A DNA stretch of 37,897 bases. Source: Actinomycetota bacterium. GTDB taxonomy: Bacteria; Actinomycetota; UBA4738; HRBIN12. A program made the translations under genes and the position numbers. The stretch covers positions 47,120 through 85,016 of the forward strand of contig JBBDWS010000097.1 of NCBI GenBank assembly GCA_040902755.1, read 5' to 3'. The number at the start of each line of letters is the position of its first letter. Position 1 is the first letter of the stretch. A model generated the notes under the pieces. That model had not been told where the DNA came from. It made no database searches and saw nothing but the letters and a program-made list of their open reading frames with translations. Below, one piece after another: positions 1,887 to 19,891 of the stretch.

Positions 1887-3544
1887 TGTCGAAGGGCGAG
1901 GGCCGAGGCGAAGGCGGCTCGGAGAGCGGCGAGGACCTGTTCGAGGATCTCGACAAGTTCTTCGCGCCGATCCAAGACGTCGACTGGCCCGAGACGAGCG
2001 ATCCCGCGGCGTCGCCGAAGGAAGGGTCCCACGAAGCCTCCGAGGACGACGAGGTTTCGCCCTCGACCGAGGACGGGCCCGGCTCGGCAGGGGCCGCCGC
2101 TCCCTTCGAGGGGCCGGTCCGGATCGAGTCCGACGAGGAGGACCTCGATCCCACGACCCGCCCGGCCCCCGGGCAGGAGGACCTGTTCGCAGGCCACGCC
2201 CCCGGAGGGGAGCGGTCCGAGGTCTCGGTGTGGTCCGCCGAAGCGAGCGGCACGGCCGAGGACGACACCGAGGACGACACCGCGGGGGACGGCGTCAGCT
2301 CGTTCCTGTTCGAGTCCGAGGCGGAGGAAGACCTGGAGCCCGGTGATCTCTCCGAGTCCTCGTTCGCCGGATCGCCGAGCGCCTACGTCGACCTGCCGGG
2401 TCCGAGCGCCGAAGACGAGTCCGTCGCCGAGCTCGAGGAGGGCGCGATGGAAGCGCCGCCGGACCTCGAAGCGGTCGAGGCGGCCGCCGACCATTTCGCG
2501 GAGTCCGTGCGCGGCGACGTGAGCGCCGAGACCGAGCCGCCCGCGGCCACGGCTCGGCCGACTGAGGAGATCCAGATCTCCGCCCTCCTGGGCGACGACG
2601 AGGACGAAGCCGGTACCGACGTGGGGCAGCCCGAGGGGACACGCACCGTGCGGGTCGGCGCGGAGGGCCTCGGTGGCCCGAGCTGGCAGGAGCCAACGGC
2701 GATGGAGGTCGGCACGGAGCCCGAGCGTCGGGCCGGGCGCGACGTGCCCATGGCGTTCGTGACTGGAGTGGTCCTCGCGGCCCTCGCGCTCGGCGCCCTC
2801 GCGATCGGCTCGGGTGCCTTCGCCATCGTCGCGGGCGCGTTCGTCCTTCTGGCGCAGGGCGAGTTCTACTTCGCGCTGCAGAAGCGCCACTACCAGCCGG
2901 CCACAGCGCTCGCGTTGGTATCCGGGGCGCTCGTTCTCGGCGCGGCCTACTACCGGGGTGAGGGCGCGATGCTGGCCGTGGTCGGCCTCACGGTCGTGGC
3001 GACCTTCCTTTGGTACATGACCGTCCCGCCCCAGCACCGCCGGAACGTGGTCACGAACATCGCCCTGACACTCCTCGGCGTCATCTATATCCCGCTGCTC
3101 GCGGGCTACGCGTTGGTGGTGCTCGAGCTTCCGAACGGACGCGGCCTCGCGCTCTCGATCATCGGGCTCACGGTCGCCTACGACGTCGCCGCCTTCGTCG
3201 TCGGGACCTGGTGGGGCAGCCGCCCGCTCGCGCCGAACATCAGCCCGAAGAAGTCGTGGGAGGGCGCGATCGGAGCCACCTTCGTCACAGCCGCGGTCGC
3301 CGTCGGCGTCGTGGCGTCGTCGGTGGATCTGCTCGAGACGATCCCGCGGGCGGTCGGCCTGGCCGTCGTGGTGAGCATCTTCGCTCCACTCGGCGATCTC
3401 GCGGAGTCCCTGCTCAAGCGGGACCTCGAGATTAAGGACATGGGCAGCGTCCTGCCCGGCCACGGCGGCGTCCTGGACCGGATCGACGCGCTGCTGTTCG
3501 TGGCGCCCGCGGCCTTCATCTACCTCAGGCTCATCCTGCTCTGA
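1886..3544 (+). CDS. cdsA: Phosphatidate cytidylyltransferase with a long acidic N-terminal extension
   Basis: The C-terminal ~280 aa is multi-TM and carries SPKKSWEGAIGA and DLAESLLKRDLEIKDMGSVLPGHGGVLDRIDALLF (CTP-transferase 1 signature). GTG 1886 overlaps the frr stop. The N-terminal ~270 aa is D/E/S/P-rich low complexity, so an internal start (e.g. ATG 2701) cannot be excluded. Confidence 0.8.
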   Translation: MSKGEGRGEGGSESGEDLFEDLDKFFAPIQDVDWPETSDPAASPKEGSHEASEDDEVSPSTEDGPGSAGAAAPFEGPVRIESDEEDLDPTTRPAPGQEDLFAGHAPGGERSEVSVWSAEASGTAEDDTEDDTAGDGVSSFLFESEAEEDLEPGDLSESSFAGSPSAYVDLPGPSAEDESVAELEEGAMEAPPDLEAVEAAADHFAESVRGDVSAETEPPAATARPTEEIQISALLGDDEDEAGTDVGQPEGTRTVRVGAEGLGGPSWQEPTAMEVGTEPERRAGRDVPMAFVTGVVLAALALGALAIGSGAFAIVAGAFVLLAQGEFYFALQKRHYQPATALALVSGALVLGAAYYRGEGAMLAVVGLTVVATFLWYMTVPPQHRRNVVTNIALTLLGVIYIPLLAGYALVVLELPNGRGLALSIIGLTVAYDVAAFVVGTWWGSRPLAPNISPKKSWEGAIGATFVTAAVAVGVVASSVDLLETIPRAVGLAVVVSIFAPLGDLAESLLKRDLEIKDMGSVLPGHGGVLDRIDALLFVAPAAFIYLRLILL

Positions 3545-8494: not shown

Positions 8495-9607
8495 GTGGCG
8501 ATGCTCGCAGAGCGCCGGAAGACCCGTCAGATCCGCGTCGGCGATGTCGCCGTGGGCGGCGATGCCCCCATCAGCGTCCAGTCGATGACCACCACGAAGA
8601 CCGCCGACGTGAACGCCACCCTGCAGCAGATCGCTTCGCTCGTGGCCACCGGGGTCGACATCGTCCGGGTCGCGGTTCCGCACTGGGACGATGCCGAGGC
8701 GCTGACCGCCATCGCCGCCAAATCGACCGTTCCGGTCGTCGCCGACATCCACTTCCAATGGAAGTACGCGATGGCGGCGCTCGAGGCGGGTATCCAAGGA
8801 TTACGGATCAACCCGGGCAACATCAAGTATCAGGACAAGGTCCGTCTGATCGCCCGCGAGGCGAAAGCCCGAAGCGTTCCGATCCGCATCGGGGTGAACG
8901 CCGGCTCGTTGGAGAAGGAGCTCCTGGAACGACACGGCGCGCCGACCCCCGAAGCGCTCGTGGAGAGCGCGCTGAACGAAGCGAGGATCCTCGAAGAGGA
9001 GGACTTCTTCGACATCAAGATCTCGGTCAAGCACTCGAACCCGCGCGTGATGATCGAGGCGTACCGGATGCTTTCCGCGCGCTGCGACTATCCGCTCCAC
9101 CTCGGCGTCACCGAGGCGGGCCCCATGCCGATGGGCGGGGTGAAGAGCTCCGTCGGGATCGGCACGCTGCTCGCCGAGGGGATCGGGGACACGATCCGCG
9201 TGAGCCTCACCGACGATCCGGTCGAGGAGGTCAAGGTCGGGACGCAGATCCTGCAGTCACTCGGCCTTCGCAAGCGCGGCCTCGACCTGGTCGCGTGCCC
9301 CAGCTGCGGCCGCGCCGAGGTCGACGTACTGGGTCTGACCAAACAGGTCCACGAGGCGCTCGAGCGCGAAGGGCTGAAGGTCCCGATCCGCGTCGCGGTG
9401 ATGGGATGCGTGGTGAACGGACCCGGCGAGGCGCGCGAGGCCGACCTCGGGATCGCCGCGGGCAAGGGACAGGGGTTCCTCGTGGTGAAGGGCGAGGTCA
9501 TCGAGAAGATCCCCGAGGATCGCTTCGTCGAGCGCCTGATCCAGGAGGCCAAGAAGATCGACGCGGAGCGGGCCGCCGTCGGGAGCGACGGCGCCGAGAT
9601 CGGCTAG
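8495..9607 (+). CDS. ispG: 4-hydroxy-3-methylbut-2-en-1-yl diphosphate synthase
   Basis: 370 aa with [32 protein letters not shown] and a C-terminal CPSCGR...GCVVNGPGE Fe-S cluster motif. Confidence 0.93.
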
Positions 9608-10176
9608 CGGCGAGCAAGGGAGAGGAAGTTGCGGACGATCGTCGGTCCGTCGGGCGTGAGGATCGACTCCGGGTGGAACTGCACGCCGAAGCGCGGAAGC
9701 GTTCGGTGCTGCGTGGCCATCACCAGGCCGTCGTCGCTCCACGCCGTGAGCTCGAGCTCGGAGGGCAGGCCGTCCCGCCGCACCACGAGCGAGTGGTAGC
9801 GGCCGGCCTCGAACGGGTTCGGCACGCCGGCGAGGATCCCCGCACCCTCGTGATGGACGAGCGACGCCTTGCCGTGCACCGGCGCCGCGCGCTCGACCAC
9901 GCCGCCGGACGCGAGGCCGAGCGCCTGGTGCCCGAGACAGACCCCGAGCACCGGTGTCTGGGGCGGCAAGATCGCGAGCAACTCGGGGAAACACCCCGCA
10001 TCCTCGGGCCGCCCGGGGCCGGGCGACAGGATCACCGCCGCCGGGTCTCTCGCCACGAGTGCCTCCGCGGGCTCCGCGTCGCTCTTCACCACCTCCGTCG
10101 GCTCGCCGAGGCTCTCGATCAGCTGCACGAGGTTGTACGTGAACGAGTCGTAGTGGTCGACGACGAGGATGGTCAC
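9604..10176 (-). CDS. trpG: Anthranilate synthase component II (glutamine amidotransferase)
   Basis: 190 aa with [25 protein letters not shown] (catalytic Cys) and [11 protein letters not shown] (His/Glu). The first two codons (GTG ACC, 10171-10176) lie outside the 51-bp repeat, i.e. in island DNA. Confidence 0.85.
10120..10170. repeat. Left att-type direct repeat (51 bp, perfect)
   Basis: cagctgcacgaggttgtacgtgaacgagtcgtagtggtcgacgacgaggat is identical base for base to 18345..18395. It lies inside codons 3-19 of trpG. Confidence 0.85.
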
Positions 10177-10224
10177 GGTCGTACGGCCTGGCAGACGGGC
10201 AGGAGGAGAGCTTCTCGGGCGCTT

Positions 10225-10246
10225 GGAGTCAGCACGGAGTCAGCAC
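10225..10246 (+). repeat. Tandem 11-mer GGAGTCAGCAC x2 (candidate recombinase arm-type sites)
   Basis: Perfect tandem duplication 55 bp inside the left repeat. A related pair sits in the same orientation 70 bp inside the right repeat (18253..18274). Confidence 0.45.
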
Positions 10247-10264
10247 GGGGCCAGGGTACCGGAA

Positions 10265-10288
10265 GGCCCCAGGCGGCTCCCTGGGGCC
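10265..10288. promoter_or_regulatory. 9-bp perfect inverted repeat directly upstream of the integrase SD
   Basis: ggccccagg-cggctc-cctggggcc abuts AAGGAGG (10289-10295) and GTG 10300. It could be an operator or a translational hairpin; function is inferred only. Confidence 0.3.
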
Positions 10289-10299
10289 AAGGAGGCGCT

Positions 10300-11352
10300 G
10301 TGGCGAGTATCCGTAGGACGGAGGCGGGCACGTGGCAGGTCTACTGGCGGGAGCCTGGCAGCGGGAAGCAGGTGGCCCGGAACCTGTCAAGCCAGGCTGA
10401 TGCCAGAAGCCTCCGAGCCGAGGTCGAGCACCGCATGGACCGGGGGACCTATGTCAGGGAGGCTGCCCGTCGCATCTCGCTGGAGGACTACCTAGACGGG
10501 GTCATCTCCTCGTTGTCCTGGCGACCGCAGTCCCGCCAGAACTGGGCGCTCGCGGCTCGCAAGCACATCGTCCCGGTCATCGGCGGCTACCGTCTCTGCG
10601 AGGTCACCCCCGCCACCGTCCGGTCCTTTCTCGCCGAGCTAGAGGCGAGCGAGTGGACTAAGAGCCTCTGCTACGACATCCTCTCCCGCGCCTTCCGCAC
10701 CGCCGAGACGGAAGGGCTCGTGATGAGTCCCATGCGAGCCGTGCGCCGCCCGTCGCCCGCCGCTCCGGCTGTCCAACCCTTGGCACCACGGGTCGTGGAG
10801 GCACTCGCGTCCGCCATCACGCCCCGGTACCGGCTGGTGGTCCTGCTCGGCGGGTTCGCTGGTCTCCGCATCGGAGAGGTCGGGGGGTTGCACGTCGACG
10901 ATTTCGACGGACAACGGCTCCGCATCCATCGGGCTGCGCTGCCTCATGACGGTGGCGTCTTGGGCCCGACGAAGACGAAGGCGAGCCGTCGCACCATCGT
11001 GGTGCCGTCCTTCCTTGCCTCCGAACTCGGCCAGGTGGAGCCGCAGCCGGACGGCAGACTGTTCGCGACCCGGACGGGCGGGTTGGTTCACCGTCAGTCC
11101 GTCGGCCCCCGATGGCAGCACGCCTGCCGCATCGTCGGCGTCGATGCACGGTTCCATGACCTGCGTCACACGTGCGCCTCGCTCCTCATCGCTGCTGGTG
11201 AGCAGCCGAAGGTCATCCAGCACTTTCTCGGTCACGCCAACATCCGGGTGACGCTCGACGTGTACGGGCACCTGTTCGAGGAGTTCGCTGCGTCGGCCGC
11301 TGAGCGCCTCGACGCAGCTTGGGAAGGGCGTTCGTTGAGAGCCGTCATTTGA
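10300..11352 (+). CDS. int: Tyrosine recombinase / phage-type integrase
   Basis: GTG 10300 is preceded by GGAGG. There is an N-terminal SAM-like/arm domain, and the catalytic residues sit in GLRIGEVGGL (Arg), HDLRHTCASL (H-x-x-R) and LGHANIRVTLDVYGHL (His..Tyr). The track ORF 8758..11352 is a read-through artefact upstream of 10300. Confidence 0.9.
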   Translation: MASIRRTEAGTWQVYWREPGSGKQVARNLSSQADARSLRAEVEHRMDRGTYVREAARRISLEDYLDGVISSLSWRPQSRQNWALAARKHIVPVIGGYRLCEVTPATVRSFLAELEASEWTKSLCYDILSRAFRTAETEGLVMSPMRAVRRPSPAAPAVQPLAPRVVEALASAITPRYRLVVLLGGFAGLRIGEVGGLHVDDFDGQRLRIHRAALPHDGGVLGPTKTKASRRTIVVPSFLASELGQVEPQPDGRLFATRTGGLVHRQSVGPRWQHACRIVGVDARFHDLRHTCASLLIAAGEQPKVIQHFLGHANIRVTLDVYGHLFEEFAASAAERLDAAWEGRSLRAVI

Positions 11353-11460
11353 CCTGTAGGCGTCTCTTGAAGGGTCCTTGGGCCCCAACTGACCTCGCGG
11401 CTCGCTCCGAGACGACGTGTCGCCACCGGTGGGCCTCCAGACACCCACCGAACTTAGGGG

Positions 11461-11488
11461 TTGCGCCGATTCTCCCCGCCGCTATAAT
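11461..11488 (+). promoter_or_regulatory. Sigma-70-like promoter candidate upstream of the RT gene
   Basis: TTGCGC (11461-66), a 16-nt spacer, then TATAAT (11483-88). A perfect -10 hexamer is conspicuous in this high-GC context. The predicted start near 11495 falls just before the RT frame opens at 11502. Confidence 0.45.
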
Positions 11489-11681
11489 CACCTACCTGTA
11501 GTTTCACGTATGTGACGCTGAACCTTCCCCTAGGCGCTCAACGGGGGAGGGACACGCTTTCAAGAAGCGGCATCTGCTAGCGAACCTGAGTCGCCTCGGC
11601 CAGGCGGACAGTACAAGCCTGCTGCCCGACGTCGTCGGATGGAACGACTTCGTCTTCATCGGCGACGAACTCTGCCACGAG

Positions 11682-12989
11682 TTGAGCCAGTCTTGGCGCG
11701 CCTTCGTGCCGGGCCCCGTGGAGCTGTTCCCCTACCCCAACGGCGAGAAGCTGCGCCATCTCGCGGTCCTTCGTCTCCCAGACCTGCTGCTTTACCGAGC
11801 CGCCGGGGGACTAGTAGCGTCGACGACTGACCCGCTTCTGTCGCCCCATGTCTTCTCCTCCCGGCTTCGGTCACCATGGCCGAGCTGGTCGCTCCGTGAC
11901 GGGCACACGGCGCACAGGCGCTGGCGCGAGGTTGCCGTGAAGACCATCTCCGAAGACCCGCTGACGGAGGCGTGGGTTACCGACGTGGCGAACTACTACG
12001 GGTCCATCTCTCCGCACCGGCTGATTGAGATGCTCACGAAGCTCAACTGTCCGTTGCCGGCCGTCAGGATGGTCACTACCTTCCTCGACGAGTGGTCATC
12101 TGCTCGCGTCCCAGGACTGCCCGTCGGTCCAGAACCCTCCAGCGTGATGGGAACGGCGTTCCTGATGCCGCTCGATGACGCGCTCGCTCGCAACGGCCAC
12201 ACGTACTTCCGCTACACGGACGATGTCGTCGTCGTAGGCCGAGACCTAGCACGGGACGACCTCGAAGGCATGGTCACCGAAACGCTGGCCGAGCTGCATC
12301 TCGAGCGGTCCGCAGAGAAGACGCATTGGTTCCCGCCGTTCTTCGCAACGCAGGCCGTCGATGACATCATCCTCAGCTACATTCACCGAGGGGGACGACT
12401 CCAAGCGTCGGCGGAAGAACTCATGAGCATTCTCGAGCAGGAGGCATCCGCAGCCCAGCCCGACGTGAAGCGTCTCCGATTCGTCCTCAAAGGCCTAAGT
12501 TCGGTAGGAGAGTCGTTCGCTTCCTCGACCCTGTGCGCGAACATGAACCTGCTGAACGCCGACCCGAGCAACACCTGCTCCTACCTGGCTAAGACATCGC
12601 TGCGCTCTGCCGTGACGCGCGAGACGCTGCTTCACATCCTCGAACTCCCGCCCGCCGACGAGCGAGAGGCACTCCGGTTCCACGCTCTGCTAGCCATGCG
12701 CGACAGTAGCTGGGGAAGTGCCGAAGGACGGGTGTTCATGGCGGTGGCATGCGATGAGCGCGCTCCATCGGCGACTCGAGCGCAAGCGTGGATGACTGCC
12801 GCGCGGACCCCCGCGTGGCGGTCGCGAGAAGTGATGGACGCTGCCGACGCGGAACGGCATCCGGCGGTCCGCCGCGCAGCGGTGTTGACTCTGCGACGGG
12901 CCGCACCTTCGCACGAGAAGGATGCGTTCCTGAATAAGATGACGGCGGACCCTTACGCGTGCGCGGCTGCGAAGTGGGCGGCCGCTTAA
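11682..12989 (+). CDS. Reverse transcriptase with helical HEAT-like C-terminal domain (UG/Abi defence-RT-like architecture)
   Basis: RT motifs occur in order: PYPNGEKLRHLAVLRLPDLLLY (1/2), VTDVANYYGSI (A), GLPVGPEPSSVMGTAFLMPLDD (B), FRYTDDVVVV (C, YTDD at 12213..12224) and LHLERSAEKTHWF (D/E). The C-terminus has ERHPAVRRAAVLTLRRAA-type repeats. The start is uncertain: TTG 11682 is the first canonical start, but the frame is open from 11502. Confidence 0.8.
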   Translation: MSQSWRAFVPGPVELFPYPNGEKLRHLAVLRLPDLLLYRAAGGLVASTTDPLLSPHVFSSRLRSPWPSWSLRDGHTAHRRWREVAVKTISEDPLTEAWVTDVANYYGSISPHRLIEMLTKLNCPLPAVRMVTTFLDEWSSARVPGLPVGPEPSSVMGTAFLMPLDDALARNGHTYFRYTDDVVVVGRDLARDDLEGMVTETLAELHLERSAEKTHWFPPFFATQAVDDIILSYIHRGGRLQASAEELMSILEQEASAAQPDVKRLRFVLKGLSSVGESFASSTLCANMNLLNADPSNTCSYLAKTSLRSAVTRETLLHILELPPADEREALRFHALLAMRDSSWGSAEGRVFMAVACDERAPSATRAQAWMTAARTPAWRSREVMDAADAERHPAVRRAAVLTLRRAAPSHEKDAFLNKMTADPYACAAAKWAAA

Positions 12990-13114
12990 GGCGGTGTCGG
13001 GTAGTCCGCGACGGGGGCAAGAACAAGCGCGAACTCCAAGCTGAGTCCTGTCGCCTTCAGCATCGACGCATCCGTGCCGATGGTCTACCTGCGTCTAGTT
13101 GAACCGGAGGCGTC

Positions 13115-13213
13115 ATGCGAAAGCTCGAGGAGAATGACTGGAAGTTCCTCGCGCTCCTCTTTGGGACGATGGTCCTGATGGTGTTTCTCTCGAACTGCCT
13201 GCCAACCCGCTAG
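13115..13213 (+). CDS. Candidate 32-aa hydrophobic peptide MRKLEENDWKFLALLFGTMVLMVFLSNCLPTR
   Basis: ATG 13115 is preceded by GGAGG (13106-10, 4-nt spacing). The peptide has a charged N-terminus followed by one TM-length hydrophobic stretch. It falls below the ORF-track size cutoff, there is no homology evidence, and it overlaps an antisense ORF. Confidence 0.3.
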   Translation: MRKLEENDWKFLALLFGTMVLMVFLSNCLPTR

Positions 13214-13609
13214 CCGCCCGCATCCTGGGGCAGCACTCGACTTCTGACCGAAGTCGCCCTGCCCGTCTCTTGTTTTTGCCGGGACGGCATCCATCTCCCA
13301 TCCCACGTCCCCCGTGGATGCCCCAAGAGCCCTGATGGTCTCCACGCGATGGACTCGGCAATCCTCGACGGATGAGACCCGGAATAGGTCCTCGTCTGGG
13401 ACGAACTCGACCGCCTACCTCTGCCGCCCATCGCCCGAACGATTCGGCACGTCCCCAAGACGAGATGACTGCTGCTCCGCTTGTGCAGAGAGACGGACAC
13501 GCCCGCGTCCGCTTCTTGACAGCTTCTAACCTTGTCGCCTAACAGGCGCGGCTTTTGTCCGTCACTCGCCCGTCCCGCATGGCACCATCGCAAGCCAGTC
13601 AGTCGGAGG

Positions 13610-14176
13610 TCAGCGCGGGCGTACTTCAGCCTCGACTACCTTCGCTCGTTCCTTCCGAGCCTCTCGGCCCCAGCCCGTCATTCCGTGCCAGCCCTCGGAG
13701 AAAACGGCATTTCGGGCGTCTTCGGAGAGTGGAGGCGCGAAGTCCTTGTAGGTCGTTTGGAATAGCTTCTTCACCTTCGCTCCGGTCCACCCCTCATCCG
13801 CGTCGTCCGCTCCCTTGACGTACAGCGTGGTCAAGAGGGTTGTGACAGCAGCCAACGCGGCGGCCGAGAACTTCTTGCTCTCAACCGACCACGTTTCTTC
13901 AGGCTCCCATTTGACCCCGATGATGATGATGATGGCTGCCGCTGCTGCAGCGATGGCACCCGGTACTAAGACCCAGTAACTCAGCCATGTCACCGCGCCA
14001 GCCGGGTACTGTGGGAGACGACTTCGGCCGACGAAGTAGCAAATGACGCCTCCGGCTACTGCGAGGGCAACCAAACCGACGGGCGCCACCCAATCCGCCG
14101 CGAAATACAGCCAGGCAAGACAAAGACCACCTATGCCGACAAGAAAAGCAGGCAAGGCGTCACGAAACCGGTCCAC
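13610..14176 (-). CDS. Hypothetical integral membrane protein (3-4 TM, charged C-terminal domain)
   Basis: GTG 14176 immediately follows the stop of the upstream 84-aa ORF. Hydrophobic helices are ALPAFLVGIGGLCLAWLYFAA, VAPVGLVALAVAGGVICYFVG and TWLSYWVLVPGAIAAAAAAIIIIIGV. I recognise no family. Confidence 0.6.
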   Translation of the reverse strand: MDRFRDALPAFLVGIGGLCLAWLYFAADWVAPVGLVALAVAGGVICYFVGRSRLPQYPAGAVTWLSYWVLVPGAIAAAAAAIIIIIGVKWEPEETWSVESKKFSAAALAAVTTLLTTLYVKGADDADEGWTGAKVKKLFQTTYKDFAPPLSEDARNAVFSEGWHGMTGWGREARKERAKVVEAEVRPR

Positions 14177-14431
14177 CTACGCGAGTCCCACCAACGGCTT
14201 CGACCGGTGCGCCTTACCCTCGTGGGTACACTCGAACACGAGCCCTTCCTTCATCAGGACAGGACGTAGGTCCGCGAACGGCTCATCAAGTCGGCACTCT
14301 CCTGTTGCCTGCAAGATGGCGGACAGCGCACGGAAGGCAAGCGCGTCCCGCCCGGGCTCGTCCCTCCACTGGCGGTTCCTCGCTGCGCTTTCCAGGTCCC
14401 TGTTGATGCCGTCGCGCGTTCGTCGTTCCAT
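14177..14431 (-). CDS. Hypothetical 84-aa soluble protein, adjacent (stop/start abutting) to the membrane protein
   Basis: The internal ATG 14431 is preceded by AGGAGG at about 6 nt. The track ORF extends to 14536 but lacks an SD. The TAG stop at 14177-79 abuts the downstream GTG. Confidence 0.55.
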   Translation of the reverse strand: MERRTRDGINRDLESAARNRQWRDEPGRDALAFRALSAILQATGECRLDEPFADLRPVLMKEGLVFECTHEGKAHRSKPLVGLA

Positions 14432-14467
14432 ATCCACCTCCTGAAGGAACCGTTGTGGGAGCGTAGG

Positions 14468-14481
14468 GCTTCCTAGGAAGC
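14468..14481. promoter_or_regulatory. 14-bp perfect palindrome upstream of the 84-aa/membrane-protein pair
   Basis: gcttcctaggaagc lies 37-50 nt upstream of ATG 14431 on the minus strand. It is an operator-like dyad; function is inferred only. Confidence 0.3.
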
Positions 14482-14901
14482 GAGTCGAACCACGCCTACT
14501 CCGGGGGGCCGGAGGGGTTACCTGACCCCACCCCAAGCAGTGCGATGACTTCTCGCCGCAGTGCGCAGGACGCGTCTACCAGGTAGTTCTGCGCGACAGC
14601 CCGGTTTGGACAGGCCTCCTGGAGTCACCAGCTAGGCGCTGCTGAGGCGGGACTAAGTCGGCTTGTAGTGCCGCCGAACCCCCTGAAAGTCACGCCCTCA
14701 CGGTCGCAAGGCGGTCTCGGACCACGCGGCCGGGACGGGATACCACCACGGCCGCGGGTCCCATTGTGCAGAGTCACTACGTCCTGACACCCTGCGTCAT
14801 TTTCCAGGCGACCGCGCGACTGTTAGGGCGTGACCAGCGTAGACGCCTCCTACCCCTGTCTTTCCTTCCCACTTATTAGAGGGGTCGCGGGAGGAGGAGG
14901 G

Positions 14902-15264
14902 ATGGACGGTCGAGCTTCTGTCGGTGGGGCGAGTTTCGTTGGCCAGGCATCTAACTGCGTCGAACGAAGACTTATCCTGCATGTCCCTGGCCCTGTAGTT
15001 ATAGAGGGCCGGAGGCGAGACGCGCTTACCCGGCCCAGTAACTCTTGTAGGTGGTCACACACCGAAGAGCCGCGACGGGCACTCTCAGGTAGGAGCGGCG
15101 AACGGACGGGCCGCATTGCGGTCCAGTCCCTAGAAACCACTGCCCGTCTAGGCCTAAGGGATAGCTGTGTCCAGAAGCAGTTCAAGCAGTTCGCCAACGT
15201 CAGGCACCTCCAGGCTCTAGCGACACCCTTGCGCGGGTCGGCATTGCGCCGCGGGTTGCCGTGA
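14902..15264 (+). CDS. Doubtful 120-aa Arg-rich ORF
   Basis: ATG 14902 sits directly behind GGAGGAGGAGGG, and its TGA overlaps the GTG start of the next gene (GTGA at 15261-64). However, the composition (R/S/G-rich), rare codons (aga, ata, cta, agg) and lack of recognisable motifs make coding status weak. Confidence 0.25.
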   Translation: MDGRASVGGASFVGQASNCVERRLILHVPGPVVIEGRRRDALTRPSNSCRWSHTEEPRRALSGRSGERTGRIAVQSLETTARLGLRDSCVQKQFKQFANVRHLQALATPLRGSALRRGLP

Positions 15265-15881
15265 GCAGCCGAGGCGGGCCCATCTCACCTGATGTCTTGA
15301 GAGTCGTCCGCAACTATCCGCAGCTGGTGGAAGCGGACGCCGATTGCCGCGCGTTCCTCGACGAACACCCGGAGTTTGCTCCCGGCTTCAACCCGAACAA
15401 GAGAAAGCGACCACGAAACACTGACGGGCGCAGGCTCACCACGTACTCCGTGGCGCCGGGAAGCGTCGACTCGTATGCGCCTCTCTACGCGCCTCAAGAG
15501 ACCGATGTCGACGAGGCAGCAAGGGATGGCTTGACGAGCTTCTTCGCTGAAGCCATGTGCTTTGTGAAACCCGAACAGAGGCAACTCTTGGAGTGGCGTT
15601 ACTGGGAGGGACTCAAGCAGCACGAGATTGCCGAGAAGCTCGGGATTATGCAGCCGACGGTGAGTCACAATCTCGCTGCAGCGCACCGTGCTCTCGTGGA
15701 TGCGATAGCGCTTTTCGAAGGCCCGCTACCCGTGATTCGGACGGGTGGGCGGCCAAAACGAGATGAGGCAGCGACGCAGGAACAAGCTCTGCAGGCTTTG
15801 GTGCGCCGCGGACTCTTGCCCGCGCCGCCCCTGTACGCGCGCGCACCTGAACACTGGCACCGCCAGTCGCTGGGGAGTTGA
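15261..15881 (+). CDS. Sigma-70 region-4-like HTH protein (no recognisable region 2)
   Basis: EQRQLLEWRYWEGLKQHEIAEKLGIMQPTVSHNLAAAHRALVDAI matches the sigma70_r4_2 / LuxR-type HTH pattern. The N-terminal 110 aa has no recognisable sigma region-2 motifs. Confidence 0.62.
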   Translation: MSSRGGPISPDVLRVVRNYPQLVEADADCRAFLDEHPEFAPGFNPNKRKRPRNTDGRRLTTYSVAPGSVDSYAPLYAPQETDVDEAARDGLTSFFAEAMCFVKPEQRQLLEWRYWEGLKQHEIAEKLGIMQPTVSHNLAAAHRALVDAIALFEGPLPVIRTGGRPKRDEAATQEQALQALVRRGLLPAPPLYARAPEHWHRQSLGS

Positions 15882-16026
15882 GACCGGTCTAACCGTGGAG
15901 GAGCTGGCGCGTTCAGGAGACGACGCGTGACCCTTGCGTAATACGACGCATACTTGCGTGCGTACCTGCCTGCGTACTCACAGACCCTTCACCCATTGAC
16001 CCATTTCTTCTACAGCGTCGTCGGAG

Positions 16027-16743
16027 CTAGCTTGTCGAATGATTCCCCTCGAAGACGATGCTCAACGTCTGCTGCCCGTCTAGGTAGCTGAGCCGTTCCG
16101 GAACCATGCCTGTCACCCGCCCATCGAACGTCAGGTACCCGACGAGGTTCGACTTCGGGGGAAGTTTCCCAGTCTCGGGGAGGAAGTTCGGCGGGAACTC
16201 AGCTTGGGACCGGACGTTCACAGGACCAAAGGTCCGGGAGTCCCGCGCAGTTACAACGAAGTTGCGAAGGTTGAATCGGACTGGCCGGTTCGTTGGGTTG
16301 CGAAGGCCGACGTAGAAGAGGAGGACGTCGTAACCGTCGCTCTCCCACGACTGGCAGTCGGACTCGTACGCCCCGAGCGTTTCCTGCTCGACGGTGTACG
16401 CATGGACGGTGCAGCCGCTGACTTCGCGTGGGAAGTCAACGACGGTCAGCCACAGCCGTTCTCCCTTCAGCCACTCCTGCTGGTGAAACGTCTGCTCGAC
16501 CCGACGAGGGCTGGTCGTGGGGGGGGTGGCGCTGGCGGATGGAGATGGCGACGAGCTGGGTATTGGGCTGGGCGATGAGGTAGGGGACGCGACAACGGTC
16601 TCGGTGTCGTCCCGCAAAGCCAGAACTGCACCGACCAGTACGACGGCGACGAGTAGCGAGACCAGCAACCCCACCACAACCCCTGACGTGAAGGTGCGCT
16701 GCTTGGGCGCGGGTGGAGTTGGACTCGCCACAGCCGGAAGCAT
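16027..16743 (-). CDS. Membrane-anchored protein with S/P-rich linker and DUF4352-like beta-sandwich ectodomain
   Basis: The N-terminal TM is GVVVGLLVSLLVAVVLVGAVLAL, followed by the linker SPTSSPSPIPSSSPSPSASATPPTTSP. The C-terminal pattern is ...LFYVGLRNPTNRPVRFNLRNFVVTARDSRTFGP...LVGYLTFDG, typical of DUF4352. Confidence 0.62.
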   Translation of the reverse strand: MLPAVASPTPPAPKQRTFTSGVVVGLLVSLLVAVVLVGAVLALRDDTETVVASPTSSPSPIPSSSPSPSASATPPTTSPRRVEQTFHQQEWLKGERLWLTVVDFPREVSGCTVHAYTVEQETLGAYESDCQSWESDGYDVLLFYVGLRNPTNRPVRFNLRNFVVTARDSRTFGPVNVRSQAEFPPNFLPETGKLPPKSNLVGYLTFDGRVTGMVPERLSYLDGQQTLSIVFEGNHSTS

Positions 16744-16819
16744 GACCCCTGCATGAGAGCCCGTGCAACGAAGCCCGGGGTACGGTCGGCCAGGTCCCTG
16801 ACGGGGGTTAGGAGCCGGT

Positions 16820-17101
16820 CTAGTGCCCTCTCACTCTCGCTCCCCACCGCGCAGTTCCGCCTCTATACTGGCGAACCCAAGGCTGCACGTCGCTCTTGCT
16901 CCAGAGCGACCCACGCGCGTACCGAGCCGAAGGTGGTGGAAACGAAGGGTCATGGCGTAGCTGGTCAGCGCGCTGCTTGGAGATTCCCAGCAGCCCGGCG
17001 ATGTCGACGAGTCTGAGTACGTCCGCCCTTGGTTGTTCGTCATTGCGGCCCGCTGGCTGGCCGGTGGCAGTCCGCCTATTCAACCGCGGAAGGCCCATCA
17101 T
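16820..17101 (-). CDS. xis: Excisionase/AlpA-family (MerR-like HTH_17) DNA-binding protein
   Basis: LRLVDIAGLLGISKQRADQLRHDPSFPPPSARYARGSLWSKSDVQPWV follows the Xis/AlpA pattern of a helix-turn-helix followed by a wing with conserved W. It overlaps the upstream gene by 26 nt; an alternative TTG start lies at 17083. Confidence 0.68.
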   Translation of the reverse strand: MMGLPRLNRRTATGQPAGRNDEQPRADVLRLVDIAGLLGISKQRADQLRHDPSFPPPSARYARGSLWSKSDVQPWVRQYRGGTARWGARVRGH

Positions 17102-18191
17102 CAGAACTCGCGCCGCTCCGTTGCGATTTCGACCAGCAGCTCAAGCAGCGAGGACCTTCCGGGTCCTTCTCCTTGCGCGTGAGGTGCGAGTCGCACGCGA
17201 GGTTTCCACACACCACACAGCTCTCCGCGGCGTCGAAGCGACCGCAGATGCTGCATTGCGAAATGCGTCGGACACGCCGCTGCTGTTTTACGAGGTCCGA
17301 CAAAGCACGTGTGCGCTCGATTGATGGGAAGTCGGGAGGAACATCCACATTGGGCACCGCTTCTGGCATCGTGGTCGGCCAGAAGGTGGTGCCGGTGGTG
17401 AAGCCGCTCAAGGACTCTGCCGGGAGGAACGTTCCTTCCGGGATGGTAAGCGGACTCCTTTCCTGCAAGGCGGTGAGTTCTGTCCTCGACTTTTCGAGTG
17501 AAGCCTCGAGCTCGGCTACGCGATGCTCAGCAGACTCAAGTCGCTCCTCCTGTGCCTTGCCTGCTTGACCCAAGGCAAGTGCAGCCCCGCGCGTCTTCGT
17601 CAACTTCTCCTCCAAGTCGGCGACACGGGAGGCGAGCGCGTACTGCTCCTTCAACATGCGTGACTCGTCCGGAAGGATGTCACTCCAGTCCTCGATTGCG
17701 TCCTTCGCTGCAGCCTGCTGCTCCTGGACGACTCCAGCGAGCTTGTCAAGGGACTGCCGGGCTTGGGTGGTGAAGAGAATGGCATCGAAGGACTTTTCGT
17801 CCTTGTCAAGCACGAACTCCCGCCTCTCTCGGTTGACGAGGGCAGCGAGTCGGTCAAGGGCTCCCGAGAGTGTGACAACTCGGCGCAGAGCACTCCTCGC
17901 ATGGGGACGGATGCTCGCTTGAGCCGCAGCCTCCGTGCTCTGTCTAGCCGCCAGGAACGTAGCCCATATTGTGAGTCCAAAGGCGACGCCGCTGAAGAGT
18001 GCGACCTCGGGGCCTGTCAGCGCGCGCTCACGACTGACCAGCACCTGAAGCCCCACCGTCACGGCAGCCAGCGTTCCGAGCACGAGGGTCTGCCAGTACA
18101 GTTGCCACCAAGACCTTTTCTCGGTGTTCTGATTCATGACCGTGAGCCGTCCCCGCTCCGTACCATCATCCGCTGGGTCCATCGTGAGCAA
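17076..18191 (-). CDS. Hypothetical 2-TM protein with long coiled coil and C-terminal Cys-rich zinc-ribbon-like module
   Basis: TM helices are WWQLYWQTLVLGTLAAVTVGLQVLV and VALFSGVAFGLTIWATFLAA. A heptad-rich segment follows (LKEQYALASRVADLEEKLTK...RVAELEASLEKSRTELTALQ). The C-terminus reads CSICGRFDAAESCVVCGNLACDSH...RCLSCW. The start is ambiguous (TTG 18191, ATG 18182 or ATG 18137). Confidence 0.58.
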   Translation of the reverse strand: MLTMDPADDGTERGRLTVMNQNTEKRSWWQLYWQTLVLGTLAAVTVGLQVLVSRERALTGPEVALFSGVAFGLTIWATFLAARQSTEAAAQASIRPHARSALRRVVTLSGALDRLAALVNRERREFVLDKDEKSFDAILFTTQARQSLDKLAGVVQEQQAAAKDAIEDWSDILPDESRMLKEQYALASRVADLEEKLTKTRGAALALGQAGKAQEERLESAEHRVAELEASLEKSRTELTALQERSPLTIPEGTFLPAESLSGFTTGTTFWPTTMPEAVPNVDVPPDFPSIERTRALSDLVKQQRRVRRISQCSICGRFDAAESCVVCGNLACDSHLTRKEKDPEGPRCLSCWSKSQRSGASSDDGPSAVE

Positions 18192-18252
18192 TGCGGACCT
18201 TCACCGCAACCTCCACCGCCCGTTGGTCCCCCCTTTCCTCTCTTCATCCCTA

Positions 18253-18274
18253 ATAGTCAGCAAGGAGTCAGCAG
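18253..18274 (+). repeat. Tandem 11-mers ATAGTCAGCAA/GGAGTCAGCAG related to 10225..10246
   Basis: They share the AGTCAGCA core with 11-bp periodicity, in the same orientation as the left-end pair, and lie 70 bp inside the right repeat. Confidence 0.42.
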
Positions 18275-18341
18275 CAGCCATCTGGCCGATGTTGTTGGCG
18301 GCGGTCCGCCGGTAGCATCCCTGCAGCGTCCGCGGCTCTTC

Positions 18342-18398
18342 CTACAGCTGCACGAGGTTGTACGTGAACGAGTCGTAGTGGTCGACGACGAGGATCAC
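18342..18398 (-). pseudogene. trpG: Orphaned 5' remnant of trpG (18 codons, then TAG)
   Basis: GTG 18398-96 overlaps the trpE TGA (GTGA). It reads [18 protein letters not shown] and then stops at 18342-44, where island DNA begins. Confidence 0.75.
18345..18395. repeat. Right att-type direct repeat (51 bp, perfect)
   Basis: Identical to 10120..10170. The duplicated peptide [16 protein letters not shown] also appears in two track ORFs (8758..11352 and 17763..18608). Confidence 0.85.
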
Positions 18399-19891
18399 GA
18401 CGGGCTCGCCTCGGCATCGAGGACGGCGGGCAGGAGCGCGGCCGCCTTCGCCTTCGTCTCCGCGAGCTCGACCTCGGGGTCGGAGTCGGCGACGATCCCT
18501 GCACCCGTCTGCACGTGCGCGCGTGCGTCGGCGACGACGGCCGTGCGGATCGTGATGCAGAAGTCGAGGTCGCCGGCGAAGGTGCAGTATCCGACCGCGC
18601 CTGCGTAGGGCCCGCGCGCGGTTGGTTCGAGCTCGGCGATGAGCTCCATCGCTCGGCGCTTTGGCGCGCCCGTCACCGTCCCGGCGGGGAACGTCACGGC
18701 CAGCGCGTCGAGGGGGTGCCGGCCCTCGGCGAGCTCGCCCTCGACGGTGCTCACGATGTGCATCACCTTCGAGAACCGCTCGACGACCATGAGCTCGGTG
18801 GGCTGCACGGTCCCGGGGGTGCAGACGCGCCCGAGGTCGTTCCGCGCGAGGTCGACGAGCATCGCGTGCTCGGCCCGTTCCTTCGGGTCGGCCAGGAGCT
18901 CGTGCTCGAACAGGCGATCGCGCAGCTCGGTCTCACCGCGCGGCCGCGTCCCGGCGATCGGCCGGGTCGTGACGCGACGGCCCTCGACGCGCACGAGCGG
19001 CTCCGGCGACGACCCGGCGAGCTCCAGCCCCAGCATCCGCACGAAGAACATGTACGGCGCGGGGTTCGTGACGCGCAGGCGCCGGTAGACTGGGAAGCCT
19101 CCCCGCGAGGAGGCGAAGCTCACGCGCCGGGACGGCACACCCTGATAGATGTCGCCGGCGAACACGTGCTCTTTCATGGAGCGCACGATCTCGCGGAACC
19201 GCTCGTCCGGCATGTTCGGTTCGCCCGCCCCCTCGTCGGCGAGGCCGTCTCCCGGTGGCTCGGGCCGAGGGGAGGCGGGGGACGAGAGGCGCGCGGCCAG
19301 ATCCTCGAGCGCGGCGATGCCGTCGTCGTACGCGCCGGCCGGCACGTGCGCGACGAGCAGGAGGCGCTGCCGCCAGTGATCGAACACGACCGCCCGGTCG
19401 ACGACGAGGAGCCCGATCGGCGGACCGGGCGTCTCGCCGGGGGGGAAGGGGTGTCCGTCGAGGAGCACCGCCGCCTCGTACGACAGGAAGCCGACAAGCC
19501 CTCCGGTGAGCGATGGCAGGCCCTCGACCCGCGGCGCGTGCAACCGCTGCGCCAGCGCCACGAGATCCGTCCGCGCTTGGCCCGTCCCCTTCACGTCGAA
19601 CCCGAGGTCGCGCGCGACGTCGTCGACTCGCAGGCCCTCCTCGTCCAGGATGACGACCGCCGCCGGATCGCCCGCGACGAAGGAGTACCGCCCCCAGCGC
19701 TCGGAGCGTTCCACGCTCTCCAGCAGGACCCCGGGGCCATCGCCTGCGAGGGTGGGGAACACGCCCACCGGCGTCGAGACGTCGGCCAGCAACTCCGTCC
19801 ACACGGGGACGAGCCGGTTCGCCCCTGCGAGCGAATCGAAGGTGTCCCGATCCGGCCGGACCTTCACGTCATCACCTCGTGAGCCGAACAA
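18395..19891 (-). CDS. trpE: Anthranilate synthase component I
   Basis: 498 aa with LLESVERSERWGRYS (the LLES-X10-S Trp feedback motif) and the chorismate-binding core (GAPKRRAMELIAELE, GPYAGAVGY). The start is TTG 19891 or GTG 19868. Confidence 0.9.
   Translation of the reverse strand: MFGSRGDDVKVRPDRDTFDSLAGANRLVPVWTELLADVSTPVGVFPTLAGDGPGVLLESVERSERWGRYSFVAGDPAAVVILDEEGLRVDDVARDLGFDVKGTGQARTDLVALAQRLHAPRVEGLPSLTGGLVGFLSYEAAVLLDGHPFPPGETPGPPIGLLVVDRAVVFDHWRQRLLLVAHVPAGAYDDGIAALEDLAARLSSPASPRPEPPGDGLADEGAGEPNMPDERFREIVRSMKEHVFAGDIYQGVPSRRVSFASSRGGFPVYRRLRVTNPAPYMFFVRMLGLELAGSSPEPLVRVEGRRVTTRPIAGTRPRGETELRDRLFEHELLADPKERAEHAMLVDLARNDLGRVCTPGTVQPTELMVVERFSKVMHIVSTVEGELAEGRHPLDALAVTFPAGTVTGAPKRRAMELIAELEPTARGPYAGAVGYCTFAGDLDFCITIRTAVVADARAHVQTGAGIVADSDPEVELAETKAKAAALLPAVLDAEASPS

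What the first reader, a model, noticed from the sequence alone, without database searches (positions are those of the whole stretch)
11461..12989. Orphan reverse transcriptase with HEAT-like C-terminal domain on a mobile island: candidate unclassified defence RT
The ORF has a complete RT palm in canonical order: motif 1/2 PYPNGEKLRHLAVLRLPDLLLY, A VTDVANYYGSI, B GLPVGPEPSSVMGTAFLMPLDD, C FRYTDDVVVV, D/E LHLERSAEKTHWF. The ~200-aa C-terminus looks all-helical and ends in HEAT/PBS-type repeats (ERHPAVRRAAVLTLRRAA, APSATRAQAWMTAART). I see no group II intron maturase/endonuclease region or intron boundaries. I also see no retron-type VTG motif, no DGR-type [LIV]GxxxSQ motif B, and no TR/VR repeat pair. 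RT plus alpha-repeat C-domain, encoded alone on an integrative island, is the architecture described for UG/Abi-class anti-phage RTs (AbiA/AbiK/Abi-P2/DRT families). I cannot place it in a named group from sequence alone. A second oddity concerns the start. The frame is open from 11502, and the 60 codons before TTG 11682 (..KKRHLLANLSRLGQADSTSLLPDVVGWNDFVFIGDELCHEL) look protein-like yet contain no ATG/GTG/TTG. A near-consensus promoter (TTGCGC-N16-TATAAT) would start the transcript near 11495. So either a non-canonical start is used (CTG 11574/11586/11619/11622, ATC 11658), or there is a ~185-nt leader. In that leader CCTTCCCC (11523-30) can pair with GGGGAGGG (11544-51), and the leader could be an RNA partner of the RT.
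Basis: partly seen in the sequence, partly recalled or inferred. Interest (0 to 1): 0.85.

Follow-up and report, generated by a model that had tools for sequence, protein, structure and literature searches.

The report
Defence reverse transcriptase without start codon
An 8.2-kb integrative island carries an AbiK/DRT4-like (Class 1 UG/Abi) reverse transcriptase whose conserved coding region begins at a Phe codon behind a strong ribosome-binding site with no normal start codon, a trait shared by its relatives that makes gene finders truncate the family.

Summary
Window 11559-12989 (+) encodes an intact 476-aa reverse transcriptase with a C-terminal alpha-helical repeat domain. It sits next to an integrase on an 8,225-bp island bounded by perfect 51-bp direct repeats. 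It is a Class 1 UG/Abi RT. The nearest profiles are RT_UG32 and RT_UG23, but the scores are too weak to file it in either group. The best whole-chain structural matches are DRT6, AbiA and DRT4. No partner gene, Rfam RNA or TR/VR pair was found. The most likely function is a single-gene, protein-primed, untemplated DNA polymerase acting in abortive infection; this is inferred, not shown.

The codons upstream of TTG 11682 are coding. They are homologous to the N-terminal helix of distant relatives, evolve under dN/dS about 0.3 with a third-position bias, and are modelled at pLDDT 94-98. Conservation begins at TTC 11559. Ten loci, some only about 30% identical, have no in-frame ATG/GTG/TTG between the nearest in-frame stop and this codon. 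In an eleventh, the only such codon lies upstream of the conserved -10 box. In all eleven a Shine-Dalgarno-like GGAGG ends 4-7 nt before the codon. The initiation mechanism is unresolved. The leader as an RNA partner of the RT is not supported.

The parts
10120..10170 (.). Left copy of the perfect 51-bp direct repeat (att). It overlaps the 5' end of the glutamine amidotransferase gene (9604-10176, minus strand).
   Evidence: D1, 100% identity, spacing 8225; GATase, E 2.5e-50
18345..18395 (.). Right copy of the 51-bp direct repeat (att). It abuts the chorismate-binding enzyme gene (18395-19891, minus strand).
10300..11352 (+). Tyrosine integrase of the island
   Evidence: Pfam Phage_integrase E 6.7e-17; PHROG 1 integrase E 2e-57; gene call in the identical Logan contig L053
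11483..11488 (+). TATAAT, a -10-like hexamer. It aligns with the TAGAAT that is invariant in six relatives.
   Evidence: The promoter scan tool does not call a full promoter here.
11499..11504 (+). TAGTTT, a second -10-like hexamer inside CTGTAGTTT, which is shared with the closest relative L138. Its TAG is the in-frame stop that opens the RT frame.
   Evidence: Its role as a -10 element is inferred.
11510..11515 (+). ATG TGA start-stop mini-ORF. Equivalents in relatives: GTG TAA (L048, L049, L050) and ATG TAA (L051, L137, L138).
   Evidence: Function unknown.
11523..11530 (+). CU-rich tract CCTTCCCC (anti-SD-like). It is conserved in all nine high-GC relatives and pairs with the SD in the predicted fold.
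11543..11551 (+). Shine-Dalgarno-like GGGGGAGGG. The best duplex with the 16S 3' end (-11.8 kcal/mol) ends 7 nt before TTC 11559.
   Evidence: A GGAGG-type element ends 4-7 nt before the same codon in all 11 loci without a usable canonical start.
11559..12989 (+). Reverse transcriptase coding region as supported by conservation (476 codons plus stop). The first conserved codon is TTC (Phe). The true initiation codon is unknown but lies at or within a few codons of 11559.
11565..11612 (+). N-terminal helix (residues 3-18 of the model). It lies entirely upstream of the first canonical start, TTG 11682.
   Evidence: AlphaFold2 pLDDT 94-98; homologous to the N-termini of distant relatives
11982..11984 (+). 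Motif A aspartate (D142)
   Evidence: Invariant or nearly invariant column in A3/A5
12213..12224 (+). Catalytic YTDD (motif C; D221 and D222)
   Evidence: Invariant columns in 85 family sequences; sequence
12411..12986 (+). C-terminal alpha-helical repeat (alphaRep/HEAT-like) domain
   Evidence: 13 helices at pLDDT above 90; alphaRep hits in the PDB at E 2e-8

Best explanation
The gene encodes a stand-alone Class 1 UG/Abi reverse-transcriptase-like polymerase: an RT palm and fingers plus a C-terminal alphaRep domain, with an AbiK/AbiA/DRT4/DRT6-like architecture. It is carried as cargo on an 8.2-kb integrase-bearing island inserted at the 5' end of a trpG/pabA-like gene.

By analogy with the characterised Class 1 enzymes, it most likely makes protein-primed, template-independent single-stranded DNA. 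Accumulation of that DNA during phage infection would be toxic and abort the infection. This step is inferred, not shown.

The protein is about 476 aa and starts at or next to TTC 11559, not at TTG 11682. Translation is directed by a strong Shine-Dalgarno element (11543-11551) onto a position that has no ATG/GTG/TTG. The SD position and the coding status of this region are shown. The actual initiating event is unknown.

This weak, non-canonical initiation probably keeps a potentially toxic enzyme at a very low level. An SD-sequestering CU-rich tract (11523-30) and a 5' ATG-TGA mini-ORF may contribute. All of this last point is inferred.
For: RT class:
- PADLOC RT_UG32 E 4e-41, RT_UG23 2e-35, Drt8 9e-30.
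- AlphaFold2 model with pLDDT 95.6 and pTM 0.93.
- Best whole-chain Foldseek TM-scores are to DRT6 9wy8 (0.60), AbiA 8oz7 (0.55-0.58) and DRT4 9vdv (0.55), with AbiK and Abi-P2 at 0.47.
- The C-terminus matches alphaRep proteins.
- All invariant or nearly invariant family residues are retained.

Stand-alone gene:
- No PADLOC or Pfam partner on the island.
- Neighbours differ between relatives.

Island.

Mechanism by analogy:
- DRT4 makes random ssDNA from a priming Tyr, and the structurally related DRT6 shares its phage-encoded activator (PMC12783706).
- AbiK and Abi-P2 (abstract of PMC9508834).

Start of the protein:
- Distant homologs with ATG starts carry F-x-x-H-E-[LI]-x-A-N-[LF]..LPxW..FEVPDV aligned to window codons -21 to 0.
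- Window versus L138, codons -21 to -1: differences by codon position 4/4/11 and dN/dS 0.35. Codons 0 to +19: dN/dS 0.18. Rest of the gene: 0.21.
- The helix formed by these codons is modelled at pLDDT 94-98.
- No in-frame canonical start lies between the nearest in-frame stop and codon -21 in the window, L138, L001, L049-L052, L134, L139 and L141; in L048 the only one (ATG -72) lies upstream of the -10 box.
- In L141 the in-frame TGA is only two codons before TTC.
- In L138 the first canonical in-frame start lies after RT motif 1.
- The best anti-SD duplex ends 4-7 nt before codon -21 in all 11 loci.
Against: - No experiment bears on activity, priming, template independence or defence.
- The Mestre et al. 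defence-island analysis was inconclusive for UG32 and UG23 (PMC9226505).
- The island carries no other recognisable defence gene.
- The initiation mechanism is unexplained. UUC is not a known start codon, and the following codon is AAG, AAA or AAT, so it is not consistently near-cognate either.
- Three relatives carry frameshifts (L001, L134, L140), so some copies of the family do decay.
- Evidence for the RNA structure is weak outside the window copy.
Confidence: 0.6

Rival explanations
1. RT plus cis-encoded non-coding RNA system, like DRT2, DRT9 or DRT10. The conserved 5' leader would be a structured RNA that the RT binds and copies.
For: The leader between the -10 box and the coding region is conserved at nucleotide level across relatives only about 45% identical in protein. 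It has a hairpin-forming GGCCTG..CAGGCC and a CU-rich/GGAGG complementarity, and a GCYTTCAAGARGC hairpin shows one C-G to U-A exchange. DRT2, DRT9 and UG8 ncRNAs lie next to their RT genes (PMC9226505).
Against: The remaining 45-65 nt has fold z-scores between -2.2 and +0.8. RNAalifold keeps only one 5-bp helix with a single compensatory pair. There is no Rfam match even at E<=1. The conserved GGAGG sits at SD distance from the coding start, which explains its conservation. The lower-GC relatives L139 and L141 lack the CU-rich tract. The fold and domain architecture are Class 1, whose studied members are untemplated.
Confidence: 0.08
2. A decaying pseudogene. The start codon was lost and the ORF is no longer expressed.
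For: There is no canonical start. Gene callers truncate it to 350 aa (P0001). The window and L138 have lost the family's LPxW motif. Some relatives are frameshifted.
Against: The absence of a start is shared by 10-11 loci spanning about 30-58% identity, so it is ancient. Yet the ORFs are intact, all catalytic and family-invariant residues are kept, and dN/dS is 0.2-0.35 including the start-less N-terminal codons. An SD element is maintained at a fixed distance. The identical island sequence was recovered in an independent sample without differences.
Confidence: 0.07
3. Recoding rather than odd initiation. Translation would start at a canonical codon in another frame or at the 5' mini-ORF, and enter the RT frame at or near UUC. 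Possible routes are a +1 slip (NUU to UUC with a rare CAA in the A site and the GGAGG acting as an RF2-like stimulator), a -1 slip, or ribosomal bypassing over about 45-56 nt.
For: The frame one nucleotide behind the RT frame has a canonical start just upstream and reads ..YTT|CAA or ..ATT|CAA in L001, L048, L138, L139 and L141. UCAA is invariant at the junction. The GGAGG lies a few nt upstream of the putative slip codon. RTG-stop mini-ORFs lie 45-56 nt upstream in seven loci.
Against: There is no suitable out-of-frame start in the window, L049 or L050. L051, L052 and L134 would need the opposite (-1) shift. There is no matched take-off and landing codon for bypassing. The frame relation between the mini-ORF and the RT varies (0, +1, +2).
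Confidence: 0.1
4. The RT serves the mobile element itself (maintenance, replication or transfer of the island) rather than phage defence.
For: It sits directly next to the integrase on a small island whose other genes are unknown. Defence enrichment was inconclusive for the nearest UG groups.
Against: The leader-plus-RT module occurs in unrelated gene contexts without a conserved integrase or shared island genes. That is the behaviour of cargo, not of an element core function. Every characterised Class 1 relative is a defence enzyme.
Confidence: 0.12

Closest known systems
UG32 and UG23 groups of Class 1 UG/Abi reverse transcriptases (Mestre et al. 2022, PMC9226505)
   Same: Best profile matches, nearly end to end (RT_UG32 profile 32-478 of 521; RT_UG23 5-385 of 489). 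RT core followed by an alpha-helical repeat domain, the Class 1 hallmark. No experimentally known function for either group.
   Different: Scores are low for a 476-aa protein (138-139 and 120 bits). The 85 sampled family members peak at only E 1e-43 to 1e-49 against these profiles, while they score 300-800 bits against their own profile. No HTH fusion (reported for UG32) and no NUDIX or SLATT neighbour (reported for UG23) was found. It is probably a sister group or a deep branch.
DRT4 (UG15) and DRT6 (UG12), single-gene Class 1 defence RTs
   Same: Stand-alone RT plus alphaRep. Best whole-chain structural similarity (DRT6 TMq 0.60; DRT4 0.55). The expected working model is protein-primed random ssDNA synthesis whose product is stabilised by a phage DNA-binding protein, leading to cell death (PMC12783706).
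   Different: Only 11-14% identity in the structural alignments. NCBIfam Drt4 scores 23.5 bits against a cut-off of 450. The priming residue was not identified. Different hosts: here high-GC, Actinomycetota-like (records of L001 and P0004).
AbiK, Abi-P2 and AbiA abortive-infection polymerases
   Same: RT-like palm with a helical repeat C-domain in place of a normal thumb. Template-independent, protein-primed synthesis is the family paradigm (abstracts of PMC9508834 and PMC11077055). Foldseek TMq 0.47-0.58.
   Different: No significant sequence-family membership. No HEPN domain (AbiA-large). Oligomeric state unknown.
DRT2, DRT9 and DRT10 RT-ncRNA systems (Class 2)
   Same: A conserved non-coding stretch directly upstream of the RT gene.
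   Different: Here the conserved stretch is short, looks like a translational leader (SD, anti-SD, mini-ORF), has no covariation support and belongs to a Class 1-type enzyme.
Known weak or recoded bacterial starts: infC AUU start, prfB (RF2) +1 frameshift, phage T4 gene 60 bypass (from my own knowledge)
   Same: Expression depends on an SD-like element placed a few nt from a non-AUG decoding event. A likely role is limiting or regulating the level of the product.
   Different: The codon at the SD-defined position is UUC (GUC once), which is not a recognised initiation codon. There is no in-frame stop at the putative slip site as in prfB, and no matched take-off and landing codons as in gene 60.

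Membership tests
Reverse transcriptase superfamily (Pfam RVT_1) | RVT_1 profile match above the gathering score, with motif A Asp and motif C YxDD | tested here: met
   30.4 bits against a cut-off of 29.6, E 4.1e-7. D142 and Y-T-D221-D222 are invariant across 85 relatives. The RT core matches group II, retron and Cas6-RT chains in the PDB at E 1e-17 to 1e-19.
Class 1 UG/Abi RTs | RT domain fused to a C-terminal alpha-helical repeat (alphaRep/HEAT-like) domain | tested here: met
   Model helices over residues 285-475 at pLDDT above 90. AlphaRep hits at E 2e-8. Best whole-chain folds are DRT6, AbiA, DRT4, AbiK and Abi-P2.
Class 1 UG/Abi RTs | Protein-primed, template-independent DNA synthesis | not testable with these tools
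   Biochemical property, known for AbiK, Abi-P2, AbiA and DRT4 (papers found). The priming residue was not mapped here.
UG32 | Strong match to the group profile | tested here: inconclusive
   RT_UG32 is the top hit, but at only 138-139 bits, with RT_UG23 close behind at 120 bits. No phylogeny with reference sequences could be run.
UG32 | Fusion to an HTH domain (PMC9226505) | tested here: not met
   No HTH family in the Pfam scan at E<=1. The match stops at profile position 478 of 521. The model shows only the RT core plus helical repeats.
UG23 | Association with a TM-NUDIX or SLATT gene (PMC9226505) | tested here: not met
   Island and flanking ORFs give no PADLOC or Pfam hit of that kind. 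There is no conserved neighbour in relatives.
Group II intron RT/maturase | Equivalog profile, maturase (X) and En domains, intron RNA | tested here: not met
   TIGR04416 scores 30.8 bits against a cut-off of 300. No group II intron RNA in Rfam scans. The C-terminus is alphaRep.
Retron RT | Retron RT profile and an adjacent msr/msd RNA | tested here: not met
   NF038233 scores 25.5 bits against a cut-off of 235. No retron RNA family in Rfam scans.
Diversity-generating retroelement RT | TR/VR repeat pair near the RT | tested here: not met
   Apart from the 51-bp att repeat, direct repeats in 10000-18600 are at most 28 nt and about 70-80% identical, which is chance level. The DGR RT aligns only over the core (TMq 0.42).
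DRT4 / DRT5 / DRT2 / DRT3a (NCBIfam equivalogs) | Score above the curated cut-off | tested here: not met
   Drt4 23.5 against 450; Drt5 26.4 against 550; Drt2 22.1 against 390; Drt3a 36.8 against 200.
Integrative genomic island | Integrase, flanking direct repeats, compositional shift, insertion into a conserved locus | tested here: met
   An independent contig (L053) covers exactly the island, repeat to repeat, with 0 differences in 8,234 nt.

The most novel reading that the evidence does not exclude
A whole family of Class 1 RT genes may be translated without any canonical or near-cognate start codon. A strong Shine-Dalgarno element would place the ribosome on a conserved UUC (once GUC) followed by an AAN codon. 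Initiation there, possibly gated by an anti-SD hairpin and a 5' AUG-stop mini-ORF, would serve as a built-in throttle for a toxic enzyme. If so, this would be a conserved natural case of SD-defined initiation at a non-start codon. It would also explain why about half of the family's database entries are N-terminally truncated.
Probability: 0.3. Interest if true: 0.8.

Novelty: new variant of a known kind. Interest (0 to 1): 0.6.

Why it matters
1. Diversity. The gene adds a sizeable, mostly uncatalogued branch to the defence-associated RTs: at least 151 clusters at 50% identity with E<=1e-30. It lies next to UG32 and UG23, two groups with no known function.

2. Annotation. About 47% of 150 representatives are N-terminally truncated gene calls, against about 11% truncated at the C-terminus (my count from the table). 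The window's own gene is in the database as a 350-aa stump lacking the fingers. Surveys that rely on called proteins will under-detect or misjudge this family.

3. Translation. A start-codon-less but SD-equipped and clearly selected coding start, conserved from about 58% down to about 30% identity, gives a directly testable question about initiation or recoding in Actinomycetota and about how toxic immune enzymes are kept at trace levels.

4. Regulation. The LexA-box-like palindrome upstream of five relatives suggests SOS control of some members. That would link this RT family to DNA damage or prophage induction.

Tried and rejected
- GTG before PDVV as the true start. All six first relatives have GTG where the window has CTG 11622. 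Rejected: it is the conserved Val of the family motif FEVPDV, and the upstream codons are homologous coding sequence.
- YTG at codon -16 (CTG 11574), bridged to the SD by the GCYTTCAAGARGC hairpin. Weakened: L138 has CTT there, and the F-K-x-H-E codons upstream are conserved as protein in distant homologs.
- Near-cognate AAG at codon -20. Not conserved: AAA in L051, AAT in L139 and L141.
- Stop-codon read-through from upstream in-frame ORFs. No consistent upstream ORF or start.
- Frameshift or bypass models. Only partly consistent.
- Pseudoknot or covariation analysis. The MAFFT alignment is out of register across the hairpin, and RNAalifold kept one 5-bp helix. Duplex energies are significant only for the window. 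No covariance model was built because only about 9 sequences exist.
- Searches for more relatives. The genome scan gave one close locus. The metagenome scan gave none closer than 29%.
- Shared island backbone between the window and L048. No protein similarity.
- A note on method. In one search the L138 row was empty because an alignment file overwrote the locus record. This was fixed from then on.
Full report
**1. What is in the window**

The ORF list gives TTG 11682..12989 (435 aa) as the only long ORF on this stretch. Translation from 11502 shows the frame is open for 60 more codons after TAG 11499-11501. None of those codons is ATG, GTG or TTG.

The product is a reverse transcriptase:
- Pfam RVT_1 scores just above its gathering score (30.4 against 29.6 bits).
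- PADLOC gives 57 RT/DRT profile hits, led by RT_UG32 (E 4e-41, almost end to end), RT_UG23 (2e-35) and Drt8 (9e-30).
- NCBIfam equivalogs for group II intron RT, retron RT and Drt2-5 all score an order of magnitude below their cut-offs.
- No tRNA and no Rfam family is found in the window.

**2. The island**

- GC falls from about 70% to 61-65% between about 10.5 and 18.3 kb.
- A perfect 51-bp direct repeat lies at 10120-10170 and 18345-18395.
- The repeats bracket 8,225 bp inserted between a glutamine amidotransferase gene (9604-10176, minus strand; the repeat covers its 5' end) and a chorismate-binding enzyme gene (18395-19891, minus strand).
- The island encodes a tyrosine integrase (10300-11352), the RT, a protein with sigma-70 region 4, and several proteins with no family match. 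None matches a PADLOC model convincingly.
- An independent Logan contig (L053, 8,234 nt) covers the island from repeat to repeat with no differences.

**3. Relatives and the family**

- The word-indexed search of 5.8 billion proteins found only six close relatives, 43-49% identical.
- An exhaustive profile search found 151 cluster representatives at E<=1e-30 and 1,210 at E<=1e-10.
- Scanning 85 of them against PADLOC gives best E-values of only 1e-49 (UG23) and 1e-43 (UG32). They score 300-800 bits against their own profile. The family is therefore a neighbour of UG32 and UG23 rather than a clear member of either.
- Mestre et al. place UG32 and UG23 in Class 1, defined as RTs fused to alpha-helical repeat domains. 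They list an HTH fusion for UG32 and NUDIX or SLATT partners for UG23, and call the defence prediction for both inconclusive (PMC9226505). I found neither the HTH nor those partners here.

**4. Structure**

- An AlphaFold2 model was built from TTC 11559 with an 85-sequence alignment. It has mean pLDDT 95.6 and pTM 0.93.
- It shows an RT core followed by 13 helices over residues 285-475.
- Family profile positions 410-485 hit artificial alphaRep proteins in the PDB at E 2e-8.
- The best whole-chain Foldseek matches by TM-score are DRT6 (0.60), AbiA (0.55-0.58) and DRT4 (0.55), with AbiK and Abi-P2 at 0.47. Group II, retron-type and DGR RTs align only over the core.
- Class 1 enzymes studied so far make protein-primed, untemplated DNA (abstracts of PMC9508834, PMC12783706 and PMC13174585). 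DRT4 primes from Tyr125.
- That is the mechanism I infer here. It is not tested.

**5. The start codon problem: where coding begins**

The six first relatives all have GTG immediately before the codons for PDVV, where the window has CTG 11622. This looked like a lost start, but it is not. In more distant homologs that begin with ATG 20-45 residues further upstream, the same Val sits inside a conserved N-terminal motif, F-x-x-H-E-[LI]-x-A-N-[LF]-x-x-L-P-x-W-x-x-x-F-E-V-P-D-V. Most full-length family members have 22-44 residues before it.

The window's upstream codons align to this motif starting at TTC 11559, which I call codon -21. Several results show these codons are translated:
- Between the window and its closest relative L138 (58% identity), codons -21 to -1 differ at codon positions 1/2/3 in the ratio 4/4/11, with dN/dS 0.35.
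- Codons 0 to +19 give dN/dS 0.18, and the rest of the gene 0.21.
- Upstream of TTC the two sequences stop being alignable as protein (GEGHA against TGGKH).
- The model folds these codons into a helix at pLDDT 94-98.

The 41 codons before TTG 11682 are therefore translated, and the conserved protein begins at or within a few codons of 11559.

**6. The start codon problem: no canonical start in relatives either**

I read the DNA of 13 independent loci.
- Ten have no in-frame ATG/GTG/TTG between the nearest in-frame stop and codon -21: the window, L138, L001, L049, L050, L051, L052, L134, L139 and L141.
- L048 has only an ATG 72 codons upstream, beyond the conserved -10 box.
- L137 and L140 do have in-frame starts.
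- In L141 the in-frame TGA is two codons before TTC, and in L139 seven.
- In L138 the first canonical in-frame start lies after RT motif 1, so no working RT could be made from it.

In all 11 of the first two groups, the strongest complement to the 16S 3' end within a 65-nt window (-7.6 to -15.4 kcal/mol) ends 4-7 nt before codon -21. That codon is TTC ten times and GTC once, and it is always followed by AAG, AAA or AAT. This is ordinary Shine-Dalgarno-to-start spacing, with no start codon at the expected place.

Gene callers have responded by truncating. By my count from the table, about 47% of 150 representatives are cut at the N-terminus against about 11% at the C-terminus. Many begin at a conserved Met two residues before motif A. 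The window's own database entry is a 350-aa stump (P0001).

**7. What the leader looks like**

In the high-GC clade, the following elements occur in order upstream of TTCAAG:
- a -10 hexamer, invariant TAGAAT in six relatives and TATAAT in the window;
- a start-stop mini-ORF: GTG TAA, ATG TAA, or ATG TGA in the window at 11510-15;
- a hairpin-forming GGCCTG..CAGGCC around a CU-rich tract (CCTTCCCC);
- the GGAGG element.

The GGAGG is read in different frames in different loci. It is therefore conserved as nucleotides, not as codons.

The CU-rich tract can pair with the SD. In the window this pairing is in the minimum-energy fold, at -21.1 kcal/mol, and only 2.7% of shuffles do as well. In the other loci the energies are not better than shuffles. 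RNAalifold retains only one 5-bp helix with a single compensatory pair. There is no Rfam match at E<=1.

I read the leader as a translational control region. An RNA partner for the RT is unlikely, though not excluded.

**8. Mechanisms considered for initiation**

- Initiation at the SD-defined codon (UUC or GUC) or the next codon (AAN). This fits the spacing and the A-rich second codon, but neither is a known start.
- A +1 slip from the frame one nucleotide behind (NUU to UUC, with a rare CAA next). A canonical start is available in that frame in L001, L048, L138, L139 and L141, but not in the window, L049 or L050. L051, L052 and L134 would need a -1 shift.
- Bypass from the 5' mini-ORF over 45-56 nt. 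There is no matching landing codon.
- Read-through of the upstream in-frame stop. There is no consistent upstream ORF.

None of these is established. The shared, selected absence of a canonical start is the solid result.

**9. Verdict**

- The RT is a new member or deep branch of a known kind (Class 1 UG/Abi). Its likely function is that of a single-gene abortive-infection polymerase, by analogy only.
- 'Long leader or RNA partner' is not supported.
- The family-wide start-less architecture is the unusual feature and deserves an experiment.

Noticed in passing
L001 5913-5926, L049 1530-1543, L050 80-93, L051 2578-2591, L052 740-753 (not in the window): The palindrome (T)CGAAC-N4-GTTCG(A) occurs in exactly 5 of the 141 loci held at that point. 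All five are close relatives of this RT, and the palindrome lies 32-54 nt upstream of the conserved TAGAAT. It matches the mycobacterial and Gram-positive LexA (SOS) box consensus as I remember it. A TAnGnT -10-like hexamer follows it directly. The window copy and L138 lack it.
   Followed up: partly
window 10120-10170 and 18345-18395; genes 9604-10176 (-) and 18395-19891 (-): The island sits between the anthranilate/aminodeoxychorismate synthase-type component I and component II genes. It duplicates 51 bp that include the 5' end of the amidotransferase gene, so it separates two genes that are probably co-transcribed without it.
   Followed up: partly
family-wide (table; sequences): About 47% of 150 family representatives are N-terminally truncated gene calls, against about 11% truncated at the C-terminus. 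About 15 begin at the same conserved Met two residues before motif A (MCRTDV...). This looks like a systematic annotation artefact caused by missing canonical starts.
   Followed up: partly
L134 198-225; window 11486-11505: Imperfect inverted repeat AATCACA-N4-TGTGATT (perfect in L134) overlapping the -10 box and the start-stop motif. It could be an operator rather than, or as well as, a mini-ORF.
   Followed up: no
L001 about 6525; L134 1408-1690; L140 about 470-530: Three relatives have a broken RT frame. L134 (seen in three samples, L134-L136) carries the C-terminal end as a separate 53-aa ORF. L001 comes from a MAG and may be a sequencing error. So some copies do decay.
   Followed up: partly
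window 13114-13212 (+) and 13610-14176 (-): A 32-aa hydrophobic ORF (MRKLEENDWKFLALLFGTMVLMVFLSNC...) lies 125 nt downstream of the RT, and a 188-aa protein with long hydrophobic stretches converges on it. Neither has a family match, and neither is conserved next to the RT in relatives.
   Followed up: partly
window 15261-15881 (+); L048 1-458: Both the window island and the contig of relative L048 encode a protein with sigma-70 region 4. The two neighbouring proteins I compared between them show no similarity, so the contexts otherwise look unrelated.
   Followed up: partly
L049 about 3100-3490: ORFs downstream of the RT in L049 translate to '...SNPGPTPYHG(V/H)..PTEL..'-type peptides. In my experience these are typical of spurious ORFs across tRNA genes, which suggests that this copy lies next to tRNA genes.
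   Followed up: no
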